From the sequence record OZ346160.1: a DNA stretch of 51,691 nt, one strand, 5' to 3'. The notes under the pieces were generated by a model. The model ran no database searches. It had not been told where the DNA came from and worked only from the letters and a program-made list of their open reading frames with translations. A program made the position numbers and the translations under genes. Positions 31,992 to 47,749 of this stretch are shown piece after piece (the first letter of the stretch is position 1; each line of letters begins with the position of its first letter). The DNA is from a phage.

Positions 31992-32223
31992 GCAAGGAAG
32001 AGATGCGGTATGGAATCACGCTAAAGAATGCGGTATTGCCGACGATATAAAGAAGATCGCGCAATACTTTGATATTGCAGATGTGAGCATAATTAGCGGC
32101 GACAAGATGACTTTCCTCAAGGAAAGGCCGCGAAAAATGGTAAGAGTTCCAGCAGTTCCAACAAAAATTGATTTCAAAGAGGCAATGGCTAAAATCCGAG
32201 AGCCTCGCAAATATTATAAATGA
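31981..32223 (+). CDS. hypothetical protein
   Basis: Start MKVEQG overlapping previous stop; GGAGG 12 nt upstream. Confidence 0.4.
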   Translation: MKVEQGRDAVWNHAKECGIADDIKKIAQYFDIADVSIISGDKMTFLKERPRKMVRVPAVPTKIDFKEAMAKIREPRKYYK

Positions 32224-32317
32224 GGATAGTTATCATGTGGCGCTTGTTTGTTCTACCGTTACCCGTTATCATCGCTGTTACAGTTATGTACCATATAGTA
32301 ATGAGATAGGTAGCAGA

Positions 32318-33433
32318 ATGAAAAATGTAAAAATTACAGATGAGCAATTCAAGATCGAACGGGCGGCGGGTAAGACATATAAACAGATCGCTCAAGAGTA
32401 CGGGATGAATGTGAGAAGCGTCGAGCGTCGCGCTGCGCGTCTTGCAAAACAAGGACAGGTGTCAACCATTGGAGCGCCTGGTTTTGGTGTTCATGGTGAG
32501 TCAGTAATGACAGACAAAGAAGGCAATATAATCCTCAAGTGGACAAAAACCAGCAAGGACAAAGAGCAATTAGAAGCATTGATGCGCGCAGCAATGGAGG
32601 CGTTTAGCGAGGAAGTGCCGCGATTAGATCCAGTTCCATTGCAGGAGCGTAACTATAATGAAACGCTTTCATTGTATCCGATCTTTGACATGCACTTAGG
32701 AGCTATGGCACATAAGCACGAATGCGGAGAAAATTGGGATACAGCTACGGCTGAGCGCGTTATGAATAACTTTATCGACTATGCTTTGATGTGCGCACCG
32801 GACAGCGAAAAGGCTGTTATCCTGATTGGTGGCGATATGCTGCATAGCGACGGCCTGGAGGCGGTGACACCTGCAAGCGGTCACGTACTTGATCAAGATA
32901 GCCGATATGCAAAATTGGTTTACGTTGCAATCCGTGCAATGCGTCGCGCAATTAATAAAATGCTGTTAAAGCATAAACATGTTGAGGTGCAGATCGTAGA
33001 GGGGAATCACGACCAATCAGGAATGATTTGGCTACGCGCAGCAATGGCGGCAGCATATGAGAACGAGCCGCGCGTTTACGTTGATGTTTCTCCTCGCGTT
33101 GTTCACCACACGCAATACGGAAAAACTTTCCTTGCGTACCATCACGGGCACACAGTGCGCAAACCTGAGACTTTGCTAATGATGTGCGCGTCAGATTGGC
33201 GGGAGGACTTCGGAAACTCAAAAACGATGTATGCGCACGTAGGGCACTGGCATCACCAGACCGTGACAGAAACGTCGCTTGGCATCGTGGAAGTGCATAG
33301 CACCCTGGCGGCAAAAGACGCATACGCCGCGCGCGGTGGCTGGAGATCTCGACGCCGTGCGGCGGTTATCATTTACGACAAAGAGCATGGAGAAGTCGGG
33401 CGATTTGTTCACTATCCAGAAATGATGAATTGA
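32318..33433 (+). CDS. calcineurin-like metallophosphoesterase with N-terminal HTH domain
   Basis: Start MKNVKIT; HTH-like KTYKQIAQEYGMNVRSVERRAARL; phosphoesterase motifs DMH, GGDMLHSD, GNHD, HHGH, GHWHH. Confidence 0.65.
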   Translation: MKNVKITDEQFKIERAAGKTYKQIAQEYGMNVRSVERRAARLAKQGQVSTIGAPGFGVHGESVMTDKEGNIILKWTKTSKDKEQLEALMRAAMEAFSEEVPRLDPVPLQERNYNETLSLYPIFDMHLGAMAHKHECGENWDTATAERVMNNFIDYALMCAPDSEKAVILIGGDMLHSDGLEAVTPASGHVLDQDSRYAKLVYVAIRAMRRAINKMLLKHKHVEVQIVEGNHDQSGMIWLRAAMAAAYENEPRVYVDVSPRVVHHTQYGKTFLAYHHGHTVRKPETLLMMCASDWREDFGNSKTMYAHVGHWHHQTVTETSLGIVEVHSTLAAKDAYAARGGWRSRRRAAVIIYDKEHGEVGRFVHYPEMMN

Positions 33434-44108: not shown

Positions 44109-45002
44109 ATGTTAAAACTTGCTGACATTAAATTCCCGATCACCTTCGAATCTCGCGGCATTGGTCATTACATTTTTACCGATGAAAAAACATGCCATAA
44201 GGTTGATATGAATAGCGACAAACTAAGCCCATCAACAATGGAGATTGAACACTTTATTGATGCACACAATACGCACTACCACGCCCTTAAAGACTATGGC
44301 TATGCAATGCCAGGCTACACATGTTTGCACTACAAGCCATATAAGGGCCAGGTGTTACCAGTGCGCTCACCGGAACGCGCAGAGATTCCGATGGTCCACA
44401 TGAAAACCTGCGACTACAAAAAGCTGTGGTGCTTAAGCGTGGATAATATCAAGTATCCGATCACGTTCCACACGACTGGTAAGTCAACGATTCGCTACAC
44501 ATCGCGCGACAATGGCGTTTATAGCGATGGCACGAAATCAGAGTTGAAAGTTGATTTCTTTGTCAACGGTCACAACAAATTCAATCCGCACAACGAAGAG
44601 GATAAAGTGTACTACGTGGAAGACATTACAAAACACTTGTTTGGAGAAACTCCATTCGGCGGCGGAAAGACGTCAATTCAAAAAATCATTGGCGAGGAGA
44701 TCCACAAAGCGGCTGCCGAAATGAAAGCGCCTGGAGGATGGCGTATTGATAAGAGCGCCTTTGCAAATCAAGAAATCGTAACGCAGGGCGCGATTGAAGA
44801 TATGCCAGTTGCAGCCACGCTAAAAGGAGTCCGGCTTGATGACGGCACCTGGTATGAATTAACGGCTACACCAAAGACGATCGAGATTCATGATGATGTT
44901 GTTATTCTCCTGCTTCACTATGGCGGCACTAAAAACCGGACTGTTGCGGGTGAGATCAGCATCAAGCGCGGAACGATGGTTAAGTGGAAGGTCAAAGTGT
45001 AA
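44109..45002 (+). CDS. hypothetical protein with internal tandem duplication
   Basis: 297 aa; repeated segment (LADIKFPITFESRG.. and VDNIKYPITFHTTG..). Confidence 0.5.
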   Translation: MLKLADIKFPITFESRGIGHYIFTDEKTCHKVDMNSDKLSPSTMEIEHFIDAHNTHYHALKDYGYAMPGYTCLHYKPYKGQVLPVRSPERAEIPMVHMKTCDYKKLWCLSVDNIKYPITFHTTGKSTIRYTSRDNGVYSDGTKSELKVDFFVNGHNKFNPHNEEDKVYYVEDITKHLFGETPFGGGKTSIQKIIGEEIHKAAAEMKAPGGWRIDKSAFANQEIVTQGAIEDMPVAATLKGVRLDDGTWYELTATPKTIEIHDDVVILLLHYGGTKNRTVAGEISIKRGTMVKWKVKV

Positions 45003-45539: not shown

Positions 45540-45721
45540 TTGTCTACGTTGTGCATGGTGATATTTACTACGACGGAGAATACTTTGAGGGAGCTTTCAG
45601 CGAATTTGATAAGGCAGAACAGCACGCTGAGACGCTTACGGATTGTTACGACGAAGTAACAATACGCGAGATAAAACTTGATGATCCAACATATGATGGC
45701 GACAAATGGAACGTAAAATGA
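45536..45721 (+). CDS. hypothetical acidic protein
   Basis: 61-aa ORF coupled to neighbours. Confidence 0.4.
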   Translation: MIVYVVHGDIYYDGEYFEGAFSEFDKAEQHAETLTDCYDEVTIREIKLDDPTYDGDKWNVK

Positions 45722-46428
45722 AAAAATACACTTTCGAACTGTGGGGCAAAAAGTACGAATTAATCACCAGCAAGCCGATTGTTATCGTTGACCTGGACGG
45801 CACATTATCGGACGGATCGCATCGTTTGCATTTGCTGCCAACTGAAAACTTGCACCTTACGGAATCGTGGCGCGAGTTTAACAGGGCCGCCGCCGGAGAT
45901 TCACCGATTAAAAGCACTATCGCGGTTATTAACGGTTTATGGGTGTCGGGATTTGCCATCGTCATCTTGACCGGACGCAGCGACGAGGTTCGCTATGAAA
46001 CCTGCAAATGGTTGAATGAGAACGGCGTGAAGTTTGACGAAATCATCATGCGCCGCCAGGAGGACAACCGAAAGGATACGGTTATTAAAGAAGAAGCCTT
46101 GCGCGCTATTGGCCTGGACAACATTGTTTGCGCCTTTGACGATTCGCCTAACGTGGTTAAGCACTTCCGCAGCTTGGGGATCACAACCTATCAGGTCACG
46201 GAATACGACAAGCCACACGCTCACATACAATCTCACGGCGTGGAATCAATCAAGATCACGAAGCGCGCCCGATTCGTCGGCAGCAAAGACAGCCTGGTCA
46301 ATGCCAGTTTTACCAGAGGAATAGCCTATGACGTTGTTTCTTATCATGACAAGAGTTTTATAGTTCATGATGATTCTGGATGCGCCTGGTCATTCAATCA
46401 TAGTGACGGCGATTTTGTTAATGCGTAA
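45718..46428 (+). CDS. HAD-superfamily phosphatase (polynucleotide 3'-phosphatase-like)
   Basis: Start MKKYTF; HAD motif I VIVDLDGTL near N-terminus. Confidence 0.6.
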   Translation: MKKYTFELWGKKYELITSKPIVIVDLDGTLSDGSHRLHLLPTENLHLTESWREFNRAAAGDSPIKSTIAVINGLWVSGFAIVILTGRSDEVRYETCKWLNENGVKFDEIIMRRQEDNRKDTVIKEEALRAIGLDNIVCAFDDSPNVVKHFRSLGITTYQVTEYDKPHAHIQSHGVESIKITKRARFVGSKDSLVNASFTRGIAYDVVSYHDKSFIVHDDSGCAWSFNHSDGDFVNA

Positions 46429-46471
46429 TAGCACTTTTTGTTAAAACATCTCAACGGGCTTGCGGTATAGT
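46427..46471 (+). promoter_or_regulatory. cassette copy
   Basis: Consensus motif after stop; hairpin GGGCTT..AAGCCC with TATAGT in loop (46466..46471). Confidence 0.5.
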
Positions 46472-46502
46472 AAGCCCATCAACAACAAACGAGGATTAAA
46501 TC

Positions 46503-46766
46503 ATGGCTAACAAGATCGAGTTTTTTAAAGCGGTAGACATTATTGATGGCGCGCCTAGCTTCTTTGCGATCCATTCTATTGACGGCAAGGATATTGGGTA
46601 CAACGTTATCCGTCGAGATGGAATATCAAAACTTAGTGACCTGGTAGGCCATATTGTGTCAATCGGGAAATGCGCATGGCCCGATTCGCCACGAGAGCCG
46701 CGCCGCCGCGACATGATTAATCCTGAATTGCTTTACACGCTGGTAGTAGAGGGAGAAAATAAATGA
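46503..46766 (+). CDS. hypothetical protein
   Basis: 87-aa ORF downstream of cassette. Confidence 0.45.
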   Translation: MANKIEFFKAVDIIDGAPSFFAIHSIDGKDIGYNVIRRDGISKLSDLVGHIVSIGKCAWPDSPREPRRRDMINPELLYTLVVEGENK

Positions 46767-46948
46767 TTTGGTTACTTGCTTTTTTGGTTGTTTTTCTTTA
46801 CATTTCAGGCTTGTTTACGTTCCGCGCGTTGGTGAAATATTCTGACGCGACAGACAAAGACGATAAAATCGTTCTCGCTTTCTGGTTTGTTTGGGTGTGG
46901 TTAGCAATTTACGAGATCATCAGAGACAAACAGAAATTTGAGTGGTGA
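46763..46948 (+). CDS. small membrane protein (two predicted TM segments)
   Basis: 61 aa, hydrophobic stretches LLAFLVVFLYISGLF and IVLAFWFVWVWLAIY. Confidence 0.4.
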   Translation: MIWLLAFLVVFLYISGLFTFRALVKYSDATDKDDKIVLAFWFVWVWLAIYEIIRDKQKFEW

Positions 46949-47158
46949 TTCTTGCTATGGCGCATTCATGCAGTGCGCCATGTTGAGAAAACCTAAAGGG
47001 GGAAATGATGCGTAACTTTGAAAAATCATTACCAAAAAGAAGCGTCGCGGATACGATGAGCATGTAGAGTTTGTGAACAAGCAACGCAAGAAGCGCAACG
47101 AAGACAAGAAGCGTGGGAAAAAATTTAATGCGATTTTTCGCTATGGAGATCATTAATC

Positions 47159-47749
47159 ATGAAACGAGACATTATCATCCTTAATGGGCCGCCAGGTTGC
47201 GGGAAGGACACTATTGCAGCTTACCTAACTGGCCATCGTTACCCTGCCGTCAAGGCGTCATTCAAACAGCCGATGTTCGATATTGCTTTTTCTATGCTGG
47301 GCGTGTACCGATACGATGAATTTATGGACCTGTACAACGACCGAGAGCAAAAAGAAAAGCCTCAAGTTATCTTGGGCGGCAAGTCACCTCGACAATTCAT
47401 GATCTGGATTAGCGAGGACGTAATGAAGCCAGTTTTTGGGGATCACTATTTCGGGCGTCGAATGGTTGAAGAGATTCACGAGATGTACCGAGATTTGGCG
47501 GTTGTGATCAGTGATGGCGGATTCCCCGAAGAAATCAAGCCGCTGGTTAAGGCAGGGCATGAAGTGCATATTTGCCGATTGCATCGCGACGGCTTCACGT
47601 TTGCTGGCGATTCGAGAGACTACATTGACCTGAGCGGTTATCACTATCGAATCCACCACTATGATTTCCACTTGCAGGACGGCAAGCCAGATCTGGCTGT
47701 AAACGAGATCGTCAATACGGTCAAATGGAAGCACACACAGATTAAATAG
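47159..47749 (+). CDS. P-loop nucleotide/polynucleotide kinase (putative)
   Basis: 196 aa; Walker A ILNGPPGCGKDT at N-terminus; same array as HAD phosphatase. Confidence 0.55.
   Translation: MKRDIIILNGPPGCGKDTIAAYLTGHRYPAVKASFKQPMFDIAFSMLGVYRYDEFMDLYNDREQKEKPQVILGGKSPRQFMIWISEDVMKPVFGDHYFGRRMVEEIHEMYRDLAVVISDGGFPEEIKPLVKAGHEVHICRLHRDGFTFAGDSRDYIDLSGYHYRIHHYDFHLQDGKPDLAVNEIVNTVKWKHTQIK

What the first reader, a model, noticed from the sequence alone, without database searches (positions are those of the whole stretch)
45718..47749. Separate HAD phosphatase and P-loop kinase genes: possible split polynucleotide kinase/phosphatase
ORF 45718..46428 begins with the HAD motif DLDGTL; ORF 47159..47749 begins with Walker A GPPGCGKDT. 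Together they provide the two activities of T4-type Pnk, which heals tRNA or DNA ends cut by host anticodon nucleases, but here as separate genes with two small genes between them.
Basis: partly seen in the sequence, partly recalled or inferred. Interest (0 to 1): 0.5.

Follow-up and report, generated by a model that had tools for sequence, protein, structure and literature searches.

The report
Phage dNMP kinase plus Pnkp-type phosphatase
The two genes are real and functionally linked, but the kinase is an ordinary phage deoxynucleotide (dNMP) kinase rather than a polynucleotide kinase, so this is a nucleotide-recycling gene pair common to T1-like phages and not a split RNA/DNA end-repair enzyme.

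Summary
The window is a near-complete T1-like coliphage genome (Drexlerviridae, about 96-97% identical to phages Poky and NorthRox).

The HAD protein (45718..46428) belongs to the T4 Pnkp phosphatase clade. It scores 75 bits against Pfam HAD_PNKP, keeps all T4 catalytic residues, and its best fold matches are Pnkp1 and T4 Pnkp.

The window has no RNA ligase, DNA ligase or tRNA gene.

The two genes are nevertheless linked. In 46 of 80 related viral loci the HAD lies upstream of the kinase on the same strand, and in 11 of these the genes abut or overlap. In some phages they are fused into one HAD-then-kinase polypeptide.

Best reading: a host-DNA nucleotide-salvage pair. The split-Pnkp idea fails for the kinase. 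The substrate of the phosphatase remains untested. Interest is low to moderate.

The parts
45718..46428 (+). Stand-alone HAD (DxDxT) phosphatase of the Pnkp-phosphatase/Dmp clade. HAD core is about residues 19-175. A ~50-residue C-terminal beta-rich extension (residues 187-236) is absent from most homologues. Alternative start at 45706.
46503..46766 (+). Small intervening ORF (87 aa), function unknown.
   Evidence: Weak phrog_25318 hit (E 4.7e-5), no Pfam hit. Conserved at this position in NorthRox. Absent in phages where HAD and kinase abut.
46763..46948 (+). Small intervening ORF (61 aa, hydrophobic), function unknown.
   Evidence: phrog_9755 E 1.2e-22. Overlaps the preceding ORF by 4 nt.
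47159..47749 (+). dNMP kinase (DNK) of the T4 gp1 / T5 Dnk superfamily, 'DGGF' subfamily.
32168..33433 (+). HTH plus calcineurin-like metallophosphoesterase ('DNA repair exonuclease' in relatives' annotation). It is a third gene that sits directly beside HAD and DNK in many relatives but lies 12 kb away here. Membership of the module is inferred.
   Evidence: E 9.8e-101 to K1ind3 ORF20. Homologues directly flank HAD-DNK in K1ind3, KpS2, VAC2 and Rao1, and flank the HAD-DNK fusion in L005.

Best explanation
The pair is the nucleotide-salvage module of T1-like phages, not a split polynucleotide kinase/phosphatase.

Kinase. The gene at 47159..47749 encodes a broad-specificity deoxynucleoside monophosphate kinase (DNK). 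It converts dNMPs released from the degraded host chromosome into dNDPs, which host Ndk then turns into dNTPs for phage DNA synthesis. This step is supported by homology, by fold and by published assays on homologues.

Phosphatase. The gene at 45718..46428 encodes a Mg-dependent HAD phosphomonoesterase of the T4 Pnkp-phosphatase clade with an intact active site (shown by sequence). It most likely works in the same pathway as the kinase. My inference is that it removes 3'-phosphates from DNA breakdown products or DNA ends, so that they can be degraded to, or already are, 5'-dNMP substrates for the kinase. An alternative inference is that it trims the dNMP pool. The substrate is not shown.

That the two proteins act together is inferred from conserved HAD-then-kinase order, overlapping reading frames and natural fusions.
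For: Kinase:
- It shares PHROG 139 with T4 gp1 over the same profile region, whereas the T4 Pnkp kinase domain hits other PHROGs.
- hhalign against T4 Pnkp aligns only the P-loop region (36 columns). Against T4 gp1 and T5 Dnk it aligns 61-74 columns.
- Residues conserved in both characterised enzymes are kept: T4 R68, R132, D175 and E181 map to window R62, R78, D119 and E125 (residue list from PMC10653934).
- Rao1 R1DNK is 45% identical and has the same DGGF motif. It phosphorylates dAMP, dGMP, dCMP and dTMP in vitro. The DNKs of KarlJaspers (82% identical) and VAC2 (42% identical) trigger Kongming, which depends on dNMP kinase activity.

Genomic context:
- In other phage groups the kinase lies beside dUTPase, ThyA/NrdA, an NT5C-type nucleotidase or a DNA ligase.
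- T1 and TLS degrade and reuse host DNA (PMC11447400).

Linkage:
- 46 of 80 IMG/VR kinase loci carry the HAD upstream on the same strand, and 11 of these abut or overlap.
- The fusions P0258 and P0265 exist, and P0258 is a single ORF in contigs from two samples.

Absences:
- No ligase or Pnk-kinase homologue and no tRNA gene were found in the window.
Against: - No member of this HAD subfamily has been assayed.
- The HAD is closer to the T4 Pnkp phosphatase than to the 5'-dNMPase T5 Dmp: 41 against 16 bits with a family HMM, with T4 R246, a proposed phosphodiester contact, conserved. A polynucleotide 3'-end substrate therefore remains possible.
- The kinase lacks the Arg equivalent to T4 R177 / T5 R172 (Gly in 35 of 35 family members) and does not reach Pfam DNMK. 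R1DNK shares this feature and is active.
- Nobody has tested these kinases on 5'-OH polynucleotides.
- Deleting dnk cost Rao1 no measurable fitness in the laboratory, so the salvage role may be conditional.
- E. coli and phage DNases usually leave 5'-phosphates, so a source of 3'-phosphorylated products is not established.
Confidence: 0.7

Rival explanations
1. Split Pnkp. The HAD removes 3'-phosphates and the P-loop protein phosphorylates 5'-OH ends of tRNA or DNA cut by host nucleases. The healed ends are then sealed by a host ligase.
For: - The HAD is a genuine Pnkp-phosphatase homologue with every catalytic residue.
- Phosphatase and P-loop kinase are coupled or fused, as in Pnkp enzymes.
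- In some relatives the kinase abuts an ATP-dependent DNA ligase.
- Host LigA could seal healed DNA nicks (established knowledge).
Against: - The kinase is homologous to dNMP kinases and not to Pnk kinases.
- Homologues are demonstrated dNMP kinases.
- dNMP kinases phosphorylate a phosphate group, not a hydroxyl, which is a different chemistry.
- The window has no RNA ligase and no tRNA genes.
- E. coli RtcB joins 3'-P/5'-OH RNA ends directly, so healing them would not be needed (established knowledge).
Confidence: 0.06
2. Dmp-like counter-defence. The HAD is a 5'-deoxynucleotidase like T5 Dmp. It depletes dAMP or other dNMPs to blunt defences, such as Kongming, that exploit the phage's own DNK. 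That would explain why it travels with DNK.
For: - T5 Dmp's only PHROG hit is phrog_415 (E 3.6e-57), the same family as the window HAD.
- The two share the DLDGT-x5-HR motif and an insertion after motif I that T4 Pnkp lacks.
- Zeng et al. report that Dmp homologues co-occur with DNKs and block Kongming.
- In Vequintavirus the DNK overlaps an NT5C-type nucleotidase.
Against: - A Dmp-only HMM scores the window HAD at only 5.8 bits.
- Rao1 carries the orthologous HAD (gp57, 57% identical) next to DNK, yet it is strongly restricted by Kongming.
- dAMP rises 2-3 fold during Rao1 infection, and Rao1 is rescued by T5 Dmp supplied in trans.
- A 5'-dNMPase co-expressed with, or fused to, a dNMP kinase would form a futile cycle.
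Confidence: 0.2
3. No functional link. These are two independent early genes that merely lie in the same early-gene block of this phage.
For: - Here they are 730 nt apart with two unrelated small ORFs between them.
- 34 of 80 kinase loci have no HAD within 6 kb.
- The HAD family also occurs widely without this kinase, for example in T4-like phages and mycobacteriophages.
Against: - The order is always HAD then kinase on the same strand in all 46 loci with both.
- The genes overlap by 4 nt in Webervirus and Kagunavirus.
- Natural single-ORF fusions occur in two independent samples.
Confidence: 0.05

Closest known systems
Phage deoxynucleotide monophosphate kinases: Rao1 R1DNK, KarlJaspers and VAC2 DNKs (Zeng et al., bioRxiv 10.1101/2024.12.20.629578), T5 Dnk, T4 gp1 (PDB 1DEK)
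   Same: P-loop GxGKDT. The gp1-like two-domain fold. Colinear motifs SFKxPMF, DRxxKE, SPRxxM, D-x-x-FPxE and GDS/T. 82% identity to KarlJaspers DNK, 45% to R1DNK and 42% to VAC2 DNK. Same PHROG as T4 gp1.
   Different: Like R1DNK, it has DGGF where T4 and T5 have D-T/V-R, so the Arg177/172 equivalent is lost. It has an invariant Arg153 where T4 has His206. It is shorter than T4 gp1 and T5 Dnk (196 against 241 and 250 aa). It does not reach Pfam DNMK PF21448.
T4 polynucleotide kinase/phosphatase (Pnkp, PseT; PDB 1LTQ, 5UJ0) and Capnocytophaga Pnkp1 (4XRP)
   Different: No Pnk-type kinase domain is attached or encoded nearby. Arg279 is Ser. A conserved insertion of roughly 16-18 residues follows motif I. 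The associated kinase belongs to the dNMP-kinase family, and in fused relatives the order is phosphatase then kinase, the reverse of T4. There is no partner RNA ligase.
T5 Dmp deoxynucleoside 5'-monophosphatase (anti-Kongming factor)
   Same: Same PHROG (415). It shares DLDGT-x5-HR and the insertion after motif I. It co-occurs with a DNK in the same genome.
   Different: Very low pairwise similarity (BLASTP aligns only motif I). Motifs III-IV of the window protein resemble T4 Pnkp and not Dmp. The Rao1 orthologue does not protect against Kongming in vivo. T5 separates Dmp and Dnk in time, whereas here they lie in one gene block.

Membership tests
T4-type bifunctional Pnkp (5'-kinase/3'-phosphatase end-healing enzyme) | C-terminal DxDxT HAD phosphatase with the T4 essential residues | tested here: met
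T4-type bifunctional Pnkp (5'-kinase/3'-phosphatase end-healing enzyme) | P-loop kinase domain of the Pnk clade (homologous to T4 Pnkp residues 1-150) | tested here: not met
T4-type bifunctional Pnkp (5'-kinase/3'-phosphatase end-healing enzyme) | Kinase and phosphatase on one polypeptide, kinase N-terminal | tested here: not met
   They are separate genes 730 nt apart. In the fused relatives P0258 and P0265 the order is HAD N-terminal and kinase C-terminal.
T4-type bifunctional Pnkp (5'-kinase/3'-phosphatase end-healing enzyme) | Partner RNA (or DNA) ligase to seal the healed ends | tested here: not met
   phmmer with T4 RnlA, an ATP-dependent DNA ligase and a ligase OB fragment against the six-frame translation of the window gave no hit at E <= 10. 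No ligase is annotated in NorthRox. This was a single-sequence search, so very remote ligases could be missed.
T4-type bifunctional Pnkp (5'-kinase/3'-phosphatase end-healing enzyme) | 5'-OH polynucleotide kinase and 3'-phosphatase activities | not testable with these tools
   Needs enzyme assays.
Phage dNMP kinase (DNK: T4 gp1, T5 Dnk, Rao1 R1DNK) | P-loop GxxGxGKD(T/S) and the gp1-like two-domain fold | tested here: met
Phage dNMP kinase (DNK: T4 gp1, T5 Dnk, Rao1 R1DNK) | Profile membership | tested here: inconclusive
   phrog_139 E 5.5e-51, the same family and profile span as T4 gp1. However, there is no hit to Pfam PF21448 DNMK at E <= 0.1, while T4 gp1 and T5 Dnk do hit it.
Phage dNMP kinase (DNK: T4 gp1, T5 Dnk, Rao1 R1DNK) | dNMP-binding residues conserved in both T4 gp1 and T5 Dnk (R68, R132, D175, R177, E181) | tested here: inconclusive
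   Four of five are kept (R62, R78, D119, E125). R177 is Gly in 35 of 35 subfamily members. R1DNK has the same DGGF motif and is catalytically active.
Phage dNMP kinase (DNK: T4 gp1, T5 Dnk, Rao1 R1DNK) | ATP-dependent phosphorylation of dNMPs | not testable with these tools
   Published for R1DNK (45% identical) in vitro. Implied by Kongming triggering for the KarlJaspers DNK (82% identical) and the VAC2 DNK (42% identical).
T5 Dmp-type deoxynucleoside 5'-monophosphatase | Sequence membership | tested here: inconclusive
   Same PHROG 415, with a shared HR motif and insertion after motif I. However, a Dmp-only HMM gives 5.8 bits and BLASTP aligns only motif I.
T5 Dmp-type deoxynucleoside 5'-monophosphatase | Depletes dAMP in vivo and blocks Kongming | not testable with these tools
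   Published data on Rao1, whose gp57 is 57% identical to the window HAD, point the other way. dAMP rises, the phage is restricted, and it is rescued by T5 Dmp in trans.

The most novel reading that the evidence does not exclude
The HAD phosphatase, the DNK and the neighbouring metallophosphoesterase may form a dedicated host-DNA recycling machine, fused in some phages. In this reading the Pnkp-type phosphatase acts as a 3'-phosphatase on DNA breakdown products and hands 5'-dNMPs to the kinase. That would identify the long-unknown genes behind host-chromosome reuse by T1-like phages. It would also show that a Pnkp-type phosphatase has been re-partnered with a different kinase family.
Probability: 0.2. 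Interest if true: 0.5.

Novelty: new member of a known kind. Interest (0 to 1): 0.25.

Why it matters
The main value is corrective. Databases label this HAD family 'polynucleotide kinase' or '3'-phosphatase, 5'-polynucleotide kinase' although it has no kinase domain. PHROG 415 carries that label even though it contains the 5'-dNMPase T5 Dmp. The adjacent kinase is often left as 'hypothetical' or 'ATP-binding', although close homologues are proven dNMP kinases and the trigger of the Kongming defence.

The conserved HAD-then-DNK coupling and the natural fusions give a testable lead on how T1-like phages recycle host DNA. They also raise the question of why an uncharacterised phosphatase travels with a kinase that exposes the phage to Kongming.

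Tried and rejected
- Sequence searches of the kinase, alone and as a profile, against PDB chains gave only P-loop matches. Pfam and NCBIfam gave nothing above cut-off. The family was resolved only by PHROG, fold search and literature.
- A MAFFT alignment that included T4 gp1 without a bridging sequence misaligned it. Redoing it with T5 Dnk as a bridge worked.
- I suspected that DGGF replacing DTR meant a changed acceptor. I dropped this once R1DNK, which has the same motif, proved to be an active dNMP kinase.
- I read the 403-aa protein upstream of the kinase in HAD-less loci (L051:4719-5930) by eye as a metallophosphatase. Pfam gave no hit, and it is not homologous to the K1ind3, Rao1 or VAC2 phosphoesterase. 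That reading is unconfirmed.
- In the HAD structure model the family-specific insertion (residues 29-62) has pLDDT below 50. Whether it forms a cap that would exclude polynucleotides could therefore not be judged.
- Zeng et al. mark which phages carry Dmp homologues only in figures S3 and S17. These are not held as text. I could not tell whether they counted the T1-like HADs as Dmps.
- The 297-aa ORF 44109..45002 was considered as a possible ligase. It has no Pfam hit, no ligase match and no KxDG motif.
Full report
**What the window is.** The region 45000-48500 matches 119 phage records. The best are Escherichia phages Poky and NorthRox at about 96-97% identity. NorthRox is classified as Drexlerviridae, Tempevirinae, Warwickvirus, and its 51-kb genome is colinear with the window. 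The window is therefore a near-complete T1-like coliphage genome. Relatives annotate the two genes of the finding as 'polynucleotide kinase' or '3'-phosphatase, 5'-polynucleotide kinase', and as 'dNMP kinase', 'ATP-binding protein' or 'hypothetical'.

**Observation.** Both ORFs exist as described.
- The HAD ORF can start at 45706 or at 45718. The 45718 ATG overlaps the upstream stop codon as ATGA.
- DLDGTL is at residues 25-30.
- The kinase ORF has a GGAG 10 nt upstream of its ATG, and GPPGCGKDT is at residues 10-18.
- Two small + strand ORFs (87 and 61 aa) lie between them, followed by 210 nt without a sizeable ORF.
- All genes from about 43.3 to 51 kb are on the + strand, and no + strand terminator-like site separates the two genes.

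**The phosphatase.**
- It passes Pfam's threshold for PF25109, the Pnkp phosphatase domain (75 bits, E 8.8e-21). It passes more weakly for class B acid phosphatase. It hits phrog_415 at E 9.8e-67.
- PDB sequence search finds Pnkp1 and T4 Pnkp.
- In an alignment with T4 Pnkp, nearly every residue known from Shuman-lab mutagenesis to be essential for the T4 3'-phosphatase is kept. Columns invariant across all 12 aligned sequences match T4 D165, D167, R176, D187, R213, K258, D277 and D278. D254 is conserved in the window and nearly invariant in the alignment, and S211 is Thr. The list of essential residues comes from my own knowledge of Zhu et al. 2007.
- T4 R246, one of two arginines proposed to hold a penultimate phosphodiester, is also conserved. 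R279 is Ser.
- A conserved insertion of roughly 16-18 residues follows motif I (HRLHLLPTxDLHLTESWxEFN). It is absent from T4 and is modelled with low confidence.
- Most homologues are about 180 aa long. The window protein carries an extra ~50-residue C-terminal beta domain.

**The kinase.**
- Pfam, NCBIfam and PDB sequence searches give only P-loop noise.
- PHROG 139, 'deoxynucleoside monophosphate kinase', matches at E 5.5e-51. T4 gp1, the crystallised dNMP kinase, hits the same PHROG over the same profile span. The T4 Pnkp kinase domain hits other PHROGs.
- Profile comparison with T4 Pnkp aligns only the P-loop region. With T4 gp1 and T5 Dnk it extends through the NMP-binding helices.
- I mapped the 1DEK functional residues tabulated in PMC10653934 using an alignment bridged by T5 Dnk. 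The residues shared by the two characterised enzymes are kept (R62, R78, D119, E125, and M81 for T4 M135), with one exception. T4 R177 / T5 R172 is Gly in all 35 subfamily members, giving the motif DGGFPxE against T5's DVRFPNE.

**Experimental anchor from the literature.** Zeng et al. (bioRxiv 10.1101/2024.12.20.629578) showed that phage DNKs trigger the Kongming (KomABC) defence by supplying dNMP kinase activity for dITP synthesis.
- Their supplementary table gives the protein sequences.
- Rao1 R1DNK has the DGGF motif and is 45% identical to the window kinase. In vitro it phosphorylates dAMP, dGMP and dCMP efficiently, and dTMP as well.
- KarlJaspers DNK is 82% identical to the window protein and triggers Kongming.
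- VAC2 DNK (QZE50419.1) is the P-loop gene immediately after the HAD in that Webervirus. It is 42% identical to the window kinase.
- The kinase is therefore a dNMP kinase, and the missing arginine does not abolish that activity.

**Are the two genes linked? Yes.**
- In Webervirus KpS2 and VAC2 and in Kagunavirus K1ind3, the HAD and kinase genes overlap by a few bases. In Rao1 they are gp57 and gp58.
- Of 80 IMG/VR loci encoding the kinase, 46 have the HAD within 2.1 kb upstream on the same strand, always in the order HAD then kinase. Eleven of these abut or overlap.
- Two proteins from the 1.8-billion-representative search are fusions of an N-terminal HAD_PNKP domain and a C-terminal kinase of this family (P0258 and P0265). 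P0258 is a single ORF on contigs from two different samples.
- A gene for an HTH plus calcineurin-like phosphoesterase flanks the pair or the fusion in Rao1, VAC2, KpS2, K1ind3 and L005. In the window its orthologue is 12 kb away, at 32168..33433.

**What the context says about function.** Where the HAD is absent, the kinase sits among replication and nucleotide-metabolism genes.
- A 5'-3' exonuclease and endonuclease VII lie upstream, and an ATP-dependent DNA ligase or a dUTPase lies downstream.
- In Chaseviridae DE15 it lies between a ligase OB fragment and a dUTPase.
- In Vequintavirus AlexBoehm it overlaps a different HAD, of the NT5C deoxynucleotidase type, next to ThyA and NrdA.
- T1 and TLS degrade host DNA and reuse the nucleotides, and the responsible genes are unknown (PMC11447400). 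The KanT1 paper also regards the PNK/dNMP-kinase pair as extending nucleotide supply (PMC13164509).
- The window has no tRNA gene and no homologue of T4 RnlA, of an ATP-dependent DNA ligase or of the Pnk kinase domain.

**What the phosphatase does is not settled.**
- T5 Dmp is the 5'-dNMPase that counters Kongming, and its only PHROG hit is phrog_415, the family of the window HAD. It shares the HR motif and the insertion after motif I.
- Even so, a family HMM scores T4 Pnkp at 41 bits and T5 Dmp at 16 bits. A Dmp-only HMM scores the window HAD at only 5.8 bits. tblastn reaches many bona fide Pnkps.
- Rao1 carries the orthologous HAD (57% identical) but remains sensitive to Kongming. It shows rising dAMP and is rescued by T5 Dmp in trans. 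This argues against an efficient 5'-dAMPase.
- T4 Pnkp's phosphatase also hydrolyses deoxynucleoside 3'-monophosphates (my knowledge of the T4 literature). Membership of this clade therefore does not by itself imply a polynucleotide substrate.
- I favour a 3'-phosphatase acting on DNA breakdown products or ends upstream of the kinase. This is inference.

**Verdict.** The split-Pnkp interpretation fails for the kinase and lacks any supporting ligase or tRNA context. The phosphatase homology and the functional pairing are real. The kinase is a known kind of enzyme with close, experimentally studied homologues. The phosphatase is an uncharacterised member of a known clade and is widely mislabelled as a kinase. 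The conserved coupling and the fusions are a modest new observation worth a biochemical test.

Noticed in passing
window 46276-46428 (HAD residues 187-236): The window HAD carries a ~50-residue C-terminal beta-rich extension (pLDDT about 80) joined by a disordered linker. Most homologues (~180 aa) lack it. The only hit is a weak one to phrog_14592, 'virion structural protein'.
   Followed up: partly
window 32168-33433; L096:36693-37826; L095:5744-6874; L008:2380-3510; L005:9340-10500: A gene for an HTH plus calcineurin-like phosphoesterase ('DNA repair exonuclease') lies directly beside HAD-DNK, or beside the HAD-DNK fusion, in several phage lineages. In the window it is 12 kb away. It may be a third member of the module.
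   Followed up: partly
L005:8001-9212, L006:3908-5119 (protein P0258); P0265: These are natural fusion proteins with an N-terminal Pnkp-type HAD and a C-terminal DGGF-type dNMP kinase, joined by a conserved linker containing GPELHG. The domain order is the reverse of T4 Pnkp.
   Followed up: partly
L009:3998-5199 (Escherichia phage AlexBoehm): In this Vequintavirus the same kinase subfamily overlaps a different HAD phosphatase (Pfam NT5C, phrog_420), followed by thymidylate synthase and NrdA. This is an independent kinase-phosphatase pairing.
   Followed up: partly
L071:6807-7832; L086:6627-7214; L007:4541-5005: In relatives without the HAD, the kinase gene is followed by an ATP-dependent DNA ligase or a dUTPase. 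In Chaseviridae DE15 the ORF before it has only the ligase OB domain (154 aa), which may be a split or truncated ligase.
   Followed up: no
PHROG 415 (database label), seen via L093:124-858 and window 45718-46428: phrog_415 is labelled 'polynucleotide kinase', yet it contains T5 Dmp (a 5'-deoxynucleotidase) and kinase-less HAD proteins. The label, and the GenBank product names derived from it, are misnomers.
   Followed up: yes
window 46949-47158: This 210-nt stretch before the kinase gene has no + strand ORF of at least 40 aa. NorthRox has two extra small ORFs at the equivalent place, so the spacer between HAD and kinase is an indel hotspot among close relatives.
   Followed up: no
window 44109-45002: This 297-aa ORF of unknown function matches phrog_7116 in two stretches, which suggests an internal duplication. 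It has no Pfam hit.
   Followed up: no
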